Under the pieces are notes generated by a model. The model did not search any database. It saw nothing but the letters and a program-made list of their open reading frames with translations, and was not told where the DNA came from. DNA of 64,000 bases from Eledone cirrhosa (lineage: Eukaryota). The stretch covers positions 157,108,001 to 157,172,000 of the forward strand of contig OZ024740.1 in the NCBI GenBank assembly GCA_964016885.1, in the 5' to 3' direction. Both the position numbers and the translations under genes were made by a program. Shown here one piece after another: positions 1,782-54,172 of the stretch (position 1 is its first letter; the number at the start of each line of letters is the position of its first letter).

Positions 1782-2280
1782 GGAAAAGAGTCAGGACCCC
1801 GACGGCTGAGCTCCGGCCGTTCCGACAACTACATCCGAACTCAATATTTTCTTTGTTTTAAAGGCTATTTCTCTCTCTCTATCACTCATTTCTGCTCCTC
1901 TCTCATCCTTTCTTCTTATACTCCTCCCCCATCAGCCTTTTCTTTCTTCCTCTTCCTTACCTTTTCCTACCCCCCCCCCCCTTTTTTCCCAATCTCATAT
2001 ATCCAGCTTACTTTATTTTTCATATGTCGATTCAACACTTCACTGCTCGCAAGTGTTTTTTAAGCTTCATATCATGTCTCCCTATTTTATCTGATGAAAA
2101 CGCAAATATCATCCCATGATGATATCTGTTTTTGAAATGCGGATAATAAAATACTTGGAACTCTTTTAACCATCGTTTGATCTTATATTATTTTTATACT
2201 CCAGTCCTATAAAATGTGGATGTTACTGATCCGATATTTGCATTGCTTTATTGTGCTACAATAAAAATCACCTGCTACAT
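1782..2280 (+). mobile_element. Non-coding PLE-derived module between (TA)n tracts
   Basis: Contains an HHR (2083-2153) and a 3' terminus (cattgctttattgtgctacaataaaaatcacctgctac) that recurs at 5116-5152 and inverted at 25251-25290. The left end 1782-1830 is the reverse complement of the motif seen at 51950-52000 and 53597-53645. Confidence 0.65.
2083..2153 (+). ncRNA. Minimal type I hammerhead ribozyme motif
   Basis: Stem I tattttat/ataaaata; core CTGATGA; stem II (a)aaacgcaaatatcatc-ccat-gatgatatctgttttt; GAAA; short stem III t-gcgg-a; cleavage triplet ATA. Confidence 0.8.
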
Positions 2281-2829
2281 ATATTTATATATAAATATAT
2301 ATTTATATATGTGTATATACATATTTATATATATATATATATATATATATATATATTTATGTATGTGTATATATATATTTATATATATATATATTTATAT
2401 ATGTGTATATACATATTTATATATATATATATATTTATATATGTGTATATACATATTTATATATATATATATATTTATATATATGTATATATATATTTAT
2501 ATATATATATATATATTTATATATGTGTATATACATATTTATATATATATATATATTTATATATGTGTATATATATATTTATATATATATATATATATAT
2601 TTATATATGTGTATATACATATTTATATATATATATATATTTATATATGTGTATATATATATTTATATATATATATATATATATATATTTATATATATAT
2701 ATATATACATATTTATATATATATATATATATATATATTTATATATATATATATATATATATATTTATATATATATATATATATATTTATATATATATAT
2801 ATATTTATATATATATATATATATATATA
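2281..2829. repeat. (TA)n-derived microsatellite with periodic TTTA and TGTG variants
   Basis: Seen directly. Confidence 0.95.
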
Positions 2830-3352
2830 TAGTATTTACGTATCGAGAAAGAGAGAAAAAGGAGGGATAGGTGATACATATAGTTATTTGCCAAGTAGCG
2901 TATGCCAAAGGTGCTCGATACTAGTGCTGGCAGTATTAAATATTCGAAGTGTTAATATTTAGTGGGCTAGAGAGTTAGCAGAGCGTAAGCACGTGGGAAA
3001 GTGAAAAATCGGAGAATAGACCGTTAAAACATGTTTATTTAAAATATCACCTACGTACGTTTCGCCCAGTTGGGCTTCTCAGGGGCATAAACAATCACAA
3101 GTGTTCCTTATATAGTTCGGAAAGAGTTTTGGGGGTTAAATCCACATCAAGATTCATTGCTCGCAAAAATATCTTTTTGCGAGCAATGAATCTTGATGTG
3201 GATTTAACCCCCAAAACTCTTTCCGAACTATATAAGGAACACTTGTGATTGTTTATGCCCTTGAGAAGCCCAACTGGGCGAAACGTACGTAGGTGATATT
3301 TTAAATAAACATGTTTTAGCGGTCTATTCTCCGATTTTTCACTTTCCCACGT
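2830..3352 (-). mobile_element. Solo fold-back pseudo-LTR of the Naiad-type PLE at 3710-5115
   Basis: 2830-3170 is a near-identical copy of 3710-4030. 2991-3352 is a palindrome centred at tcgcaaaaatatctttttgcga. Confidence 0.8.
3250..3311 (+). ncRNA. Hammerhead motif with U3-A8 core variant (mirror copies on - strand at ~3030-3093 and ~3910-3972)
   Basis: tgtttatgccc TTGAGAA gccc-aact-gggc GAAA cgtacg TA ggt...ataaaca. Stem III is palindromic. Confidence 0.65.
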
Positions 3353-3709
3353 ATATATATATATATATATTTATATATATATATACATATTTATATATAT
3401 ATATATATTTATATATATATATATATATATATTTATATATATATATTTATATATATATATATATATTTGTATATATATATATATATTTGTATATATATAT
3501 ATATTTGTATATATATATATATATATATTTATATATATATATATATATATATATATATTTATATATATATATTTATATATATATATTTATATATATATAT
3601 TTATATATATATATATATTTATATATATATATATATTTATATATATTTATATATTTATATATATATATATTTATATATATATTTATATATATATATATAT
3701 TTATATATA
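3353..3709. repeat. (TA)n microsatellite with TTTA variants
   Basis: Seen directly. Confidence 0.95.
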
Positions 3710-5115
3710 TAGTATTTACGTATCGAGAAAAGAGAAAAAAAGGGGGATAGGTGATACATATAGTTATTTGCCAAGTAGCGTATGCCAAAGGTGCTCGATA
3801 TTAGTGCCGGCAGTATTAAATATTCGAAGTGTTAATATTTAGTGGGCTAGAGAGTTAGCAGAGCGTAAGCACGTGGCAAAGTAAAAAATCGGAGAATAGA
3901 CCGTTACAACATGTTTATTTAAAACAGCACCTACGTACGTTTCGCCCAGTTGGGCTTCTCAAGGGCATAAATAATCACTAGTGTTCCTTATATTGCTCGG
4001 AAAGAGATTTTGGGGTTAAATCCACATCAAGGTTCATTGCTCACAAAAATTTCTTGTTTTGATTTTGCAGCAGGTCAAGGGAGGTAAATCTGGCCGGTGT
4101 TAGGGCAGTCTTTCCCGCACAATTTTTTTTTTTTTTTTTTTTGCCGCATCCATTTGTCTGAGGCTGGGTCTGGTATGCAAGGATTGTTTCCTGGGTGTTA
4201 TTTTGCAGCGCCTGCCTGCCGGGGTGTTAAGACTTGTTGCAGGGAGGTCCAGTGTAATGTTTCACTCTTCATCCTTAACCCATCTGAAGAAGGATATTTT
4301 TAAGCGATGTGTACAACTTATCGCTGTTTCAGCTCTGCTGTTGATGAGCTCGTGGGGTGCAGTTATGATGTGGTCGAGCTCCATGAGGCAAAGATCGCAT
4401 TTCCTCTTGAAGTTGTACGGTGCAGCCCTGCCGACAATCTCCCAGTGCGTGGAGAAGCTGATGTTTAAGTCCTTTAGTGATGTGATGTAGTGCGCGAGCG
4501 AAGTGGAGTGCCTTAGTTTTCTATTTGTGAAAGAGTGGAGATGTGTTCGAAACCTAATTTTGAACGGGCCGGAGGTAGCCCCTATATAATGTTTAGCGCT
4601 ATTGTGGCTAGTAATAGTGCATCTATATATAACCCTATCAGTCAAGCAGTATCCTCTAAGGGGGCAGCGTCCTCTGTCGCGGCAGTTGCAATTTCTGTCG
4701 CGGTTCCGTCTATTTCCCACGGTAAGGCTATCATTGTTGCTGCCTACGTTGTTACCTATGCTACCGAAGCTGTCGTTAGCACCATTACAACCCACAGCCC
4801 GCGGGGTGGTGCGATTGTTATTCCGCACGTCATGTTCTGCATGTTCCCCAGTGATTTCGCGGTTATTCTGATTGCGTCTGCGGATTCCGCTGCCAACACT
4901 ATTGGATGCTGCCAGGGAGTTGTTAAGGCCGATATAGTTATTGTCAGGTGTAGCTGCGTCTGTGTCGAGGTGCTGTGTCTTGGTGATCTTACTGTGGTTC
5001 GTTGTTCCTATAATGTCTGCTAGGTTAGGAGTAGTAGAGAAGGATATTTTTATATTGTTCCTATTAAGAATTTTTCTATACCTATGGTTGGGCGGGAATT
5101 TTTCTATACCTATGC
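3710..5115 (-). mobile_element. 5'-truncated Penelope-like element, Naiad-type
   Basis: GIY-YIG ORF remnant followed by a 3' pseudo-LTR with an HHR, ending ...TACTA(TA)n on the - strand. Confidence 0.85.
4262..5115 (-). pseudogene. PLE C-terminal fragment: linker plus GIY-YIG endonuclease
   Basis: [65 protein letters not shown]. The N-terminal part of the track ORF (to 5260) is microsatellite read-through. Confidence 0.85.
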
Positions 5116-5152
5116 ATTGCTTCATTGTACTACAATAAAACTCACCTCCTAC

Positions 5153-52568: not shown

Positions 52569-53386
52569 CTGATGAGGACGTACTGTTGTACATGGTAGAA
52601 CCATGACTGAATCTTAACCATCTACTATGTCATGGTATGTCATGCATCATCTTATTTTATCTGATGAGGACGTACTGTTGTACATGGTAGAACCATGACT
52701 GAATCTTAACCATCTACTATGTCATGGTATGTCATGCATCATCTTATTTTATCTGATGAGGACGTACTGTTGTACATGGTAAAACCATGACTGAATCTTA
52801 ACCATCTACTATGTCAGGGTATGTCATGCATCATCTTATTTTATCTGATGAGGACGTACTGTTGTACATGGTAAAACCATGACTGAATCTTAACCATCTA
52901 CTATGTCATGGTATGTCATGCATCATCTTATGTTATCTGATGAGGACGTACTGTTGTACATGGTAGAACCATGACTGAATCTTAACCATCTACTATGTCA
53001 GGGTATGTCATGCATCATCTTATTTTATCTGATGAGGACGTACTGTTGTACATGGTAAAACCATGACTGAATCTTAACCATCTACTATGTCATGGTATGT
53101 CATGCATCATCTTATGTTATCTGATAAGGACGTACTGTTGTACATGGTAGAACCATGACTGAATCTTAACCATCTACTGTGTCAGGGTATGTCATGCATC
53201 ATCTTATTTTATCTGATGAGGACGTACTGTTGTACATGGTAGAACCATGACTGAATCTTAACCATCTACTATGTCATGGTATGTCATGCAACATCTTATT
53301 TTATCTGATGAGGGCGTACTGTTGTACGTGGTAGAACCATGACTGAATCTTAACCATCTACTATGTCATGCATCATCTTATTTTAT
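52569..53386 (+). repeat. 92-bp tandem repeat x9 (last unit 82 bp) containing the HHR 5' half
   Basis: CTGAT(G/A)AG starts at 52569, 52661, 52753, 52845, 52937, 53029, 53121, 53213, 53305 and 53387. Confidence 0.95.
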
Positions 53387-53445
53387 CTGATGAGGACGTA
53401 CTGTTGAACTTAACTCAGTACCTCTGAAATATGTATAATAAAATA
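53379..53445 (+). ncRNA. Minimal type I hammerhead motif (mirror at 52447-52513 -)
   Basis: tattttat CTGATGA ggacgtactg-ttgaacttaact-cagtacctct GAAA t-atgt-a TA ataaaata. Confidence 0.8.
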
Positions 53446-53570
53446 TAATTGATCACAAGAATATCTATTTTGTTAATAGTTTGAATTAATATATATATAT
53501 ATATATATATTTATATATATATATATATATATACATATATATATATATATACATATACATATATATATAT

Positions 53571-53720
53571 GAAAAGAAACAGGAGCCCGACGGCTGAGCT
53601 GTCGAAACGGCCGGAGCTCAGCCGTCGGGGTCCTAAATCTTTTCATATGACTCACTCTACTACCATATCGAGTACTCTGGTGCATATGGTTCACCTGGTA
53701 TCTTACCATACCCTTTCTGA
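53571..53720 (+). mobile_element. Short fold-back module
   Basis: cccgacggctgagct..agctcagccgtcggg hairpin, then terminus ctactac..gagtactctggtgc..cacctgg..ttacca, which is shared with 43491-43570 (inverted) and 44615-44670. Confidence 0.7.
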
Positions 53721-53741
53721 TATATATATATATATATATAT

Positions 53742-54172
53742 ATACGATATTAAATAAATGGAAACTATATTTATAAAACCATATTTATTTCATTATACAT
53801 ATTTCAGGGATACCAAATTAAAATATGGTATGCCTTCATCAGACAAAATACAATATATAAACAGTTTTATAAATAATTTTGACGTACACTATTAGATGCA
53901 ACCATTATTTTTGGAAGCTGTGTTTATTTATAAAACTGTTTATATATTGTATTTATAAAACTGTTTATATATTGTATTTTTTCTGATGAAGGCATACCAT
54001 ATTTTAATTTGGTATCCCTGAAATATGTATAATGAAATAAATATGGTTTTATAAATATAGTTTCCATTTATTTAATATCGTATATCTACTCCAAAAACTT
54101 GTCGAGTGCTTTATATCAGTTATAAAATATTTACTTGTTGTATCCCAACAATTTTAAATAGAACTTTTGCAT
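53742..54172. mobile_element. Palindromic module with two HHRs (53787-53850 -, 53975-54039 +)
   Basis: Arms 53742-53877 and ~53950-54085. CTGATGA aggcatacca-loop-tggtatccct GAAA t-atgt-a TA. Confidence 0.8.

What the first reader, a model, noticed from the sequence alone, without database searches (positions are those of the whole stretch)
1782..54172. Insertions built from two outward-facing 3' ends in (TA)n, including pairs from different families
Seen: many inserts between (TA)n tracts have an element 3' terminus pointing outward on both sides. Same-family pairs give palindromes (2830-3352, 5949-6540, 13261-13765, 21186-24770, 52305-53492, 53742-54172). Four are heterologous. At 1782-2280, family E (-) is joined to family A (+). 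At 3710-5152, a Naiad ORF (-) is capped by a ~37-nt family A terminus. At 25251-25642, family A (-) is joined to family D (+). At 52048-52272, family D (-) is joined to family E (+). Established: Penelope elements often carry an inverted pseudo-LTR at the truncated 5' end. Inference: both ends of a break in the self-complementary (TA)n target prime reverse transcription, sometimes on two different RNAs. This would make a community of small non-coding ribozyme RNAs share one PLE RT/endonuclease and act as interchangeable end caps.
Basis: partly seen in the sequence, partly recalled or inferred. Interest (0 to 1): 0.82.

Follow-up and report, generated by a model that had tools for sequence, protein, structure and literature searches.

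The report
Penelope-type palindromes and hybrid inserts
These are Penelope-like retrotransposon insertions piled up in (TA)n runs; their mirror-image form is already known, and the four mixed-family inserts most likely arose from neighbouring insertions that later lost the DNA between them, not from one event on two RNAs.

Summary
The structures are real. The six listed palindromes and four mixed-family inserts are at the stated places. The coding elements are Hydra-clade Penelope-like elements (endonuclease after the RT), not Naiads. Head-to-head palindromes with a one-sided 'tail' are published for PLEs, and extension of both target strands has been shown in vitro. Here 9 of 9 clear same-family palindromes have exactly one tailed arm (52-164 nt) and one tail-less arm, which points to one template per insertion. 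Only 1 of 4 mixed inserts follows that rule (Fisher p 0.014; 0.077 if two nested cases are counted). Two mixed inserts (25251, 52048) have three pieces and keep the centre of a same-family palindrome at the join; a third has a 19-nt slippage copy. Neighbours across a TA tract are of different families in 10 of 11 cases, so deletion would give mixed pairs. In reads from other samples the tail-less end recurs, while the A-D join is not amplified. Best reading: separate insertions, then microhomology-joined deletion (0.6). A single two-RNA event stays open (0.27), chiefly for 1782-2279 and 3712-5152. Empty sites could not be tested.

The parts
1782..1842 (-). Mixed insert d, left: family E arm, tail-less end facing left; 61 nt, about the length of other E arms (55-62 nt)
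1843..2082 (.). Mixed insert d, middle: pyrimidine-rich stretch, family not assigned
   Evidence: one weak 28-nt hit only
2083..2279 (+). Mixed insert d, right: family A with type I hammerhead motif (2091-2145) and full tail
   Evidence: natural A sequence matches loose-end consensus
2832..3352 (.). Family B palindrome: arms 2991-3169 / 3174-3352, 98.9%, spacer 4, 159-nt tail on the left only
3712..5114 (-). Mixed insert f, left: 5'-truncated Hydra-type PLE (family B) with tail; ORF 4265-5095 (linker + GIY-YIG); 19-nt direct duplication at the join (5068-5086 / 5096-5114)
5113..5151 (+). Mixed insert f, right: last ~39 nt of the family A tail
   Evidence: (96.8% to 25257-25287, 91.4% to 2239-2273)
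5949..6537 (.). Family C palindrome: arms 259 nt, 96.9%, spacer 16, 55-nt tail on the left; hammerhead-like motif
6712..6868 (+). Solo family G tail plus ~20 nt; only one outward end
13261..13757 (.). Family G palindrome: arms 181 nt, 97.2%, spacer 1, 132-nt tail on the left
21188..24768 (-). Family H: 5'-truncated Hydra-type PLE (ORF 22892-24295, RT end + GIY-YIG) with inverted 502-nt pseudo-LTR (99.4%); 164-nt tail on the left
25251..25359 (-). Mixed insert k, left: family A tail plus ~19 nt
25357..25384 (-). Mixed insert k, middle: 28-nt family D stub that forms a hairpin with the D(+) arm (17-bp stem, 9-nt loop)
25383..25642 (+). Mixed insert k, right: family D with hammerhead motif (25452-25501) and full tail
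25708..26746 (-). Family K partial direct tandem (415-nt repeats, 98%); no inverted arm
   Evidence: strand inferred
42871..43460 (.). Family L inverted pair: arms 89 nt, 95.5%, spacer 358, 52-nt tail on the left
43491..43600 (-). Solo family E tail plus ~19 nt
44487..44690 (.). Older family E palindrome: arms 62 nt, 83.9%, spacer 1, ~79-nt tail on the right; no long TA flank
51935..51992 (+). Family E arm, tail-less, joined to unassigned sequence on its left
52048..52195 (-). Mixed insert q, left: family D arm, tail-less end, degenerate hammerhead
52194..52271 (.). Mixed insert q, right: 22-nt E(-) stub + E(+) arm (tail-less); the hairpin centre lies at the same place as in the E palindrome at 44549
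52305..53488 (.). Family F palindrome: arms 153 nt, 99.3%, 99-nt tail on the left; 92-bp unit repeated ~9 times at the centre; hammerhead in both arms
53571..53720 (.). Family E palindrome: arms 30 nt, spacer 14, 76-nt tail on the right
53745..54171 (.). Family D palindrome: arms 131 nt, 99.2%, spacer 74, 91-nt tail on the right

Best explanation
Hydra-type Penelope-like elements and related hammerhead-bearing ends sit in clusters inside (TA)n tracts; each same-family insert has one tailed and one tail-less outward arm, likely because both cut target strands prime at two start sites on one template, and the mixed-family inserts were likely made in two steps, when a later break or a new insertion removed the DNA between two neighbours. 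Steps: (1) shown - inserts cluster in TA tracts, and the two coding ones carry Hydra marks. (2) shown - one-tail asymmetry in 9 of 9 palindromes; the tail-less D end recurs next to (TA)n in reads of other samples. (3) inferred from PMC11167929 - the two ends are the two RT start sites, and the two cDNA ends (or a folded-back cDNA) are joined head-to-head. (4) inferred - a break in the TA tract or at a hairpin, or a fresh insertion with target deletion, is repaired through 2-3 nt of microhomology and fuses the outer arm of one insert to the far part of its neighbour. Because every insert already points outward, the product does too.
For: One-tail rule: 9 of 9 same-family against 1 of 4 mixed; Fisher p 0.014 (end types of the mixed inserts read by me: none/tail, tail/tail, tail/tail, none/none). 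Inserts k and q contain the centre of a palindrome of the right-hand family; background rate 2 of 644 windows. The k stub is D sequence: natural A continues differently in 1214 and 1613 reads, and the stub carries the G that 582 of 592 reads show at 25390. The q hairpin centre coincides with that of the E palindrome at 44549, and E arms at 1782 and 51935 have no such hairpin. Facing neighbours across a TA tract differ in family in 10 of 11 cases (read). Depth at the A-D join is 0.4-0.6% of the A side in two RAD runs and 2-3% in contigs, so the hybrid is not an amplified unit. One RAD run shows a tail-less D end a few TA units from an A end (97 reads, one start, absent from the other run), i.e. 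close neighbours of different families. Of 15 joints shown (39 in all), 6 are D-D strand switches and none is an unambiguous A-D join.
Against: No precursor or empty allele was seen; no listed contig spans insert k. Both stubs are short (28 and 22 nt); under a uniform breakpoint the chance is about 0.035 (rough arm lengths), which suits a template jump during insertion just as well. Insert d follows the one-tail rule, has no stub, and its E arm has the usual length. With the two nested palindromes at 997-1462 counted as exceptions, Fisher p is 0.077. Coupling of the two truncation points is only partial: spacer of 16 nt or less in 5 of 9; the six RAD joints alone give p 0.068, and 0.008 only when two window loci with approximate positions are added. 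The A half of k is closer to its family than the D half (1 against 8 private changes, counted from the 40 rows shown of 196) but not significantly (p 0.20). One joint (25349 to 25444; 74 and 87 reads) could be a second A-D join, though the 22 letters also fit A's own hammerhead. With A reads about a tenth of D reads, the joint table has little power.
Confidence: 0.6

Rival explanations
1. One reading: a dimeric PLE protein holds two different RNAs, each target end primes on one of them, and the cDNAs are joined in a single integration; the short stubs come from a jump of one cDNA onto the other RNA just before joining.
For: PMC11167929 reports cutting and extension of both strands, no difference in start site between strands, and a predicted dimer. 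Insert d has a tail-less E arm of usual length (61 nt against 55-62) joined to a tailed A arm with no stub. Both stubs are short (chance about 0.035). A, D and F share hammerhead and tail similarity, so one protein could plausibly bind them.
Against: Independent choice of start site predicts a one-tail pattern in about half of same-family palindromes; 9 of 9 were seen (p 0.002). k and q need an extra template jump. No second clear A-D join among the 15 joints shown. PMC3846280 found no cross-mobilisation between PLE types in a rotifer (a different comparison).
Confidence: 0.27
2. Each 'mixed' insert is one composite family whose fixed structure already contains both ends, so the families were split wrongly.
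For: A, D and F are related. The middle of d and the left of 51346-51992 are unassigned.
Against: For k, depth falls to about 1% or less at the join in RAD reads and A reads continue into ordinary A sequence. The A end occurs with three different partners in the window. Only k was tested with reads.
Confidence: 0.05
3. The hybrids or palindromes are assembly or read artefacts caused by (TA)n tracts and hairpins.
For: No listed contig of the best run spans k; TA tracts of 400-900 bp flank several inserts.
Against: Arms differ by 0.6-16% and carry one-sided tails. The joins lie inside non-repetitive sequence. D-D strand switches and the tail-less end appear in raw reads of two other samples.
Confidence: 0.05

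Closest known systems
Hydra clade of C-terminal-endonuclease Penelope-like elements (Craig et al. 2021, PMC8557442; its supplement lists a Hydra-1_Obim family with (TA)n preference)
   Same: C-terminal GIY-YIG, CxCx5C linker, no CCHH, CxxC and CxH round E/N, (TA)n targets, hammerhead-like motif, inverted truncated copy at the 5' end, tail on one end.
   Different: Tails here are 52-164 nt against the 30-40 bp quoted. No full-length copy lies in the window, and I could not compare with Hydra consensus sequences directly.
Inverted pseudo-LTR / palindromic Penelope inserts of Adineta vaga (Arkhipova et al. 2013, PMC3846280)
   Same: Head-to-head inverted repeats with a palindrome at the junction, optional one-sided tail, solo pLTRs, microhomology joins, asparagine-rich linkers (11.6% and 15.1% N here).
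   Different: In the passages I saw, no inverted pairs from two families are described; targets there are not long (TA)n clusters.
Poseidon PAc mechanism (Frangieh et al. 2024, PMC11167929)
   Same: Two RT start sites that bracket the tail, both target strands extended, AT-rich targets, templates that run through an uncut hammerhead.
   Different: Different clade. In vitro the strands did not differ in start site, whereas here each clear palindrome uses each site once. No two-RNA products are reported in the parts read.
Non-LTR retrozymes and non-autonomous PLE derivatives (bioRxiv 10.64898/2026.07.22.740005; non-autonomous Chlamys in PMC8557442)
   Same: Short type I hammerhead elements related to PLE pseudo-LTRs, proposed to use PLE proteins in trans.
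   Different: Retrozymes are head-to-tail tandems; families A, D and F are here single or inverted copies, and their non-coding status is untested.
L1 twin priming and L1 insertion-mediated deletion (recalled; not checked in a paper)
   Same: Both target ends prime on one RNA and leave outward-pointing segments; new insertions can delete adjacent DNA through microhomology.
   Different: In L1 the two segments do not overlap; here both arms copy the same stretch.

Membership tests
Naiad PLE | GIY-YIG endonuclease N-terminal to the RT | tested here: not met
   ORF 22892-24295 has RT-end motifs (NFLD, SNHP) first and GIY-YIG at residues 353-404 of 468; both ORFs stop soon after the endonuclease; the full-length relative P0001 has the same order
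Naiad PLE | CCHH motif inside GIY-YIG and CX2-5CxxC finger | tested here: not met
   One cysteine between VIY and YIG/YVG; linker is CNCx5C
Naiad PLE | Lack of canonical hammerheads | tested here: inconclusive
   H has a variant core (CCGAAGA...GAAA CAGCTG TA); B has a U3-A8-type core by eye that both scans missed
Hydra PLE | C-terminal GIY-YIG without CCHH | tested here: met
Hydra PLE | CxCx5C linker; CxxC and CxH flanking catalytic E and N | tested here: met
   CNCRDRGRC / CNCRANRTC; CDLCLME / CNLCILE; N...CTH / N...CQH
Hydra PLE | RWK and DKT motifs in the RT N-terminal region | tested here: inconclusive
   Region is missing from the truncated window copies; present (RWR, DKT) in P0001, a relative at 34% identity
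Hydra PLE | Insertion into (TA)n | tested here: met
Hydra PLE | RT phylogeny with reference Hydra families | not testable with these tools
   No reference consensus was available as a usable sequence; the RT core is absent from these copies
PLE inverted pseudo-LTR structure | Inverted truncated copy at the 5' end, with tail on one end only | tested here: met
   9 of 9 clear palindromes
PLE inverted pseudo-LTR structure | Target-site duplication round the whole unit | not testable with these tools
   Hidden by (TA)n on both sides; no empty site available
Non-LTR retrozyme | Type I hammerhead motif | tested here: met
   A, D, F full core with 8-bp stem I; C and H with weaker support; none in E; no hammerhead family among the 150 Rfam rows listed of 168
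Non-LTR retrozyme | Head-to-tail tandem monomers, each with a full hammerhead | tested here: not met
   A, D, F occur singly or inverted; the 92-bp array holds only the 5' half of the motif
Non-LTR retrozyme | No coding parent; circular RNA; self-cleavage | not testable with these tools
   No genome held; no RNA run laid
Single-event two-RNA chimera | Both halves arrive together at an empty site | not testable with these tools
   Needs long reads across (TA)n in other individuals
Single-event two-RNA chimera | Clean two-piece join with no remnant of an older insert | tested here: not met
   Not met for k and q; f has a 19-nt slippage copy; d has no stub but 240 nt unassigned

The most novel reading that the evidence does not exclude
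A Hydra-type PLE protein works as a dimer that can load two unrelated hammerhead-bearing RNAs and integrate both in one reaction, one from each end of a cut (TA)n target, so that short families act as shared end caps; inserts 1782-2279 and 3712-5152 would be its products, and the stubs in the other two would record a template jump at the join.
Probability: 0.22. Interest if true: 0.72.

Novelty: new variant of a known kind. Interest (0 to 1): 0.38.

Why it matters
How PLEs make their inverted ends is an open question. This window gives a sharp genomic rule to test: each clear palindrome has one long-tailed and one tail-less arm, which would mean each of the two RT start sites seen in vitro is used once per insertion, with tails longer than those published. 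If the hybrids are deletion products, they show (TA)n tracts as sites of repeated insertion and loss that shuffle element ends. If some are single two-RNA events, that would be a retrotransposition route I did not find described in my searches, and direct evidence for a dimeric, two-template RT complex.

Tried and rejected
No whole genome is held, so the genome-wide table of end pairs could not be made. Exact-pattern scans for family ends found nothing: metagenome contigs twice, viral contigs once. Earlier scan notes: nothing by place, words or sequence. Rfam listed only chance miRNA-like hairpins below gathering score in the 150 rows shown of 168. Pfam found nothing for the ORF at 4265-5110 and only a sub-threshold GIY-YIG for 22892-24295, so the clade call rests on motifs. 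Free-energy folding supported the hammerhead region only for A (z -4.0); the other six hammerhead candidates were not better than shuffles. Two scripted scans missed the B, G, K, L, E and J motifs. The generic repeat finder was swamped by microsatellites. Dating the two halves of k was inconclusive (p 0.20). Run X1 (another organism, share 0.06) holds family A pieces but almost no D, which says nothing about this locus. Dropped from the one-tail count: the palindromes at 997-1170 and 1287-1462, because they are parts of a larger nested 500-bp palindrome; the count with them is given too. Rejected: Naiad; the E hairpin in q as a natural stem (absent from two other E arms); the k stub as natural A sequence. 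Literature searches that did not show a report of two-family inverted PLE pairs: (open-access library only; listings, not full texts).
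Full report
Setting. The window is AT-rich animal DNA with many microsatellites, SINE-like repeats, a Helitron, LINE fragments and three Penelope-like ORF fragments. 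It looks like a cephalopod genome to me; that is recalled, and no call tested it. No whole genome is held. I read the sequence by eye except 15001-19799 and 34601-40899; the scripts covered the whole window.

Observation. In all nine, one arm runs on past the shared end for 52-164 nt (the 'tail') and the other stops at a fixed point and abuts TA repeats (only a short TA run at 44487). Arm identities are 83.9-99.4%. Spacers are 1, 1, 4, 14, 16, 74, 358, 769 (a 92-bp array) and 2412 nt. Two further palindromes at 997-1170 and 1287-1462 have no tail, but they are parts of one nested 500-bp palindrome; I left them out and also give the count with them. The four mixed inserts are real. Not all inserts have two outward ends: two are a tail plus about 20 nt, and one is a direct tandem.

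What the elements are. The ORFs at 4265-5095 and 22892-24295 are 42% identical. The longer one has the end of the RT before the GIY-YIG domain. Both have a CxCx5C linker, no CCHH motif, and CxxC and CxH round the catalytic E and N. These are the features PMC8557442 gives for the Hydra clade, which prefers (TA)n and carries hammerheads; Naiads have the endonuclease first. A full-length relative, P0001 (34% identity, 1 hit among 4453 candidates), also shows RWR and DKT motifs. So 'Naiad' is wrong. Families B and H are the ends of these coding elements. Families A, D and F carry a full type I hammerhead motif with an 8-bp stem I (7 hits, 0 at score 10 or more in 5 shuffles) and resemble each other in the tail. 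C and H have weaker motifs, and E has no core. Whether A, D, E and F are non-coding families or truncated ends of coding ones cannot be told here.

Same-family palindromes are a known form. PMC8557442 describes inverted truncated copies with a 30-40 bp tail on one end. PMC3846280 describes head-to-head repeats with palindromic junctions and proposes self-priming. PMC11167929 shows that a Poseidon protein cuts and extends both strands, starts at two RNA sites that bracket the tail, and is predicted to be a dimer. The window adds that each insert uses each end once: 9 of 9, p 0.002 if each end chose freely. That fits one template per insertion, primed twice or folded back; sequence alone cannot separate these. 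In reads laid on 25247-25646 the tail-less D end followed by (TA)n is a major loose end (5411 and 6464 reads in two RAD runs), and depth in the tail is 0.46 and 0.39 of the body. RAD reads sample few loci, so this shows recurrence and not a true ratio. Coupling of the two inner truncation points is only partly supported (p 0.068 for six RAD joints; 0.008 with two approximate window loci).

The mixed inserts. Their end types are none/tail (1782), tail/tail (3712), tail/tail (25251) and none/none (52048): 1 of 4 follows the rule (Fisher p 0.014; 0.077 with the nested pair). Insert 25251 is A(-), then a 28-nt D(-) stub, then D(+); the overlaps are AAA and CC. The stub pairs with the D(+) arm and matches the region upstream of D at 53880-53920. 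True A sequence continues otherwise in 1214 and 1613 reads. Insert 52048 is D(-), a 22-nt E(-) stub and E(+), with the hairpin centre at the same position as in the E palindrome at 44549. Such centred hairpins occur in 2 of 644 background windows. Insert 3712 ends in a 19-nt slippage copy of its own sequence and then 39 nt of the A tail, with a 2-nt overlap. Insert 1782 has no stub, and 240 nt of it are unassigned. Inserts stand in rows within shared TA tracts, and facing neighbours differ in family in 10 of 11 cases (my reading). Any deletion from inside one insert to inside the next therefore yields an outward-facing mixed pair.

Reads on the A-D insert (4 of the 7 runs listed; one stretch only). 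Depth at the join is 0.4-0.6% of the A side in RAD reads and 2-3% in contigs, so this hybrid has not spread as a unit. No listed contig spans it. Of 15 joints shown out of 39, six are D-D strand switches. One places a tail-less D end a few TA units from an A end in one run only. One (25349 to 25444) could be A-A or A-D. A reads are about a tenth of D reads, so absence of further A-D joins is weak evidence.

Mechanism and odds. Most likely (0.6) each insertion comes from one template, insertions accumulate in the same tract, and hybrids form later by deletion or by a new insertion that deletes part of its neighbour, sealed through 2-3 nt of microhomology. The clustering, asymmetry, stubs and overlaps are shown; the priming scheme and the deletion step are inferred. 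Against it: both stubs are short (rough chance 0.035), insert 1782 looks as a one-step product would, and no precursor allele was seen. The two-RNA single event keeps 0.27; composite families and artefact 0.05 each.

Literature seen. PMC8557442: abstract, introduction, results parts 1, 3 and 4 of 4, discussion part 1 of 2, two supplement term searches. PMC11167929: parts 1-3 of 4. PMC3846280: abstract and passages. PMC6431247: passages, not used further. bioRxiv 10.64898/2026.07.22.740005: part 1 of 5 and passages; its supplements were not seen. L1 twin priming, insertion-mediated deletion and hammerhead core variants are recalled. Searches did not bring up a report of two-family inverted PLE pairs; the library lacks most subscription papers, including the 2005 and 2006 PLE reviews.

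Verdict. The feature is real and mostly a known PLE structure, with longer tails and a stricter asymmetry than I found described. The bold part of the finding is possible but not favoured. Interest 0.38.

Noticed in passing
window 997-1745: A nested structure: a 500-bp palindrome (1128-1627) centred at 1375 includes microsatellites and part of a second palindrome (997-1170). In the right arm that part is cut to about 41 nt and joined to a 29-nt repeat of the first element's end, while the mirror arm keeps it whole. It may be a mixed outward pair whose longer precursor is still visible.
   Followed up: partly
window 52566-53406: A 92-bp unit repeated about 9 times at the centre of the F palindrome; each unit holds only the 5' half of the hammerhead. 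It may reflect repeated template jumps or later tandem expansion.
   Followed up: no
window 1782-1842, 44487-44611, 51935-51992, 52217-52271: Four family E arms begin at nearly the same inner point, 55-62 nt from the tail-less end, and contain no hammerhead core; this may mark a fixed RNA 5' end such as a cleavage site.
   Followed up: partly
window 6712-6868, 43491-43600, 25251-25359: Three pieces from three families consist of the tail plus about 19-20 nt, suggesting a common stop shortly after the inner start site.
   Followed up: partly
window 2279-2831, 3352-3711, 5161-5948, 20304-21187, 24767-25250, 26740-27158: TA tracts beside these inserts are 360-880 bp and have patterned interruptions (TATT, TGTG, ATT units), unlike the short pure tracts elsewhere in the window.
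   Followed up: no
window 62200-63757: A third PLE fragment on the minus strand, with RT before a GIY-YIG that has CX2-5CxxC and CxxC motifs (Neptune/Nematis-like, broken by a frame change).
   Followed up: partly
window 15038-19636: Degraded Helitron Rep/helicase on the minus strand (Helitron_like_N, E 6.8e-52).
   Followed up: partly
window 57116-58978: LINE-type RT with zf-RVT domain, ending in an (ATT)n tail near 59224.
   Followed up: no
window 7277-7355 and 11493-11650: Exon-like stretches; the second reads like a class B GPCR helix region (recalled, not tested), so the inserts may lie in introns.
   Followed up: no
window 28576-46470: More than ten copies of a ~190-nt SINE-like repeat, some in tandem (38402-38979) or inverted (40497-40948).
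   Followed up: no
window 55489-56140: Another inverted pair (about 150-nt arms, 89.6%) with microsatellites between the arms; end types not examined.
   Followed up: no
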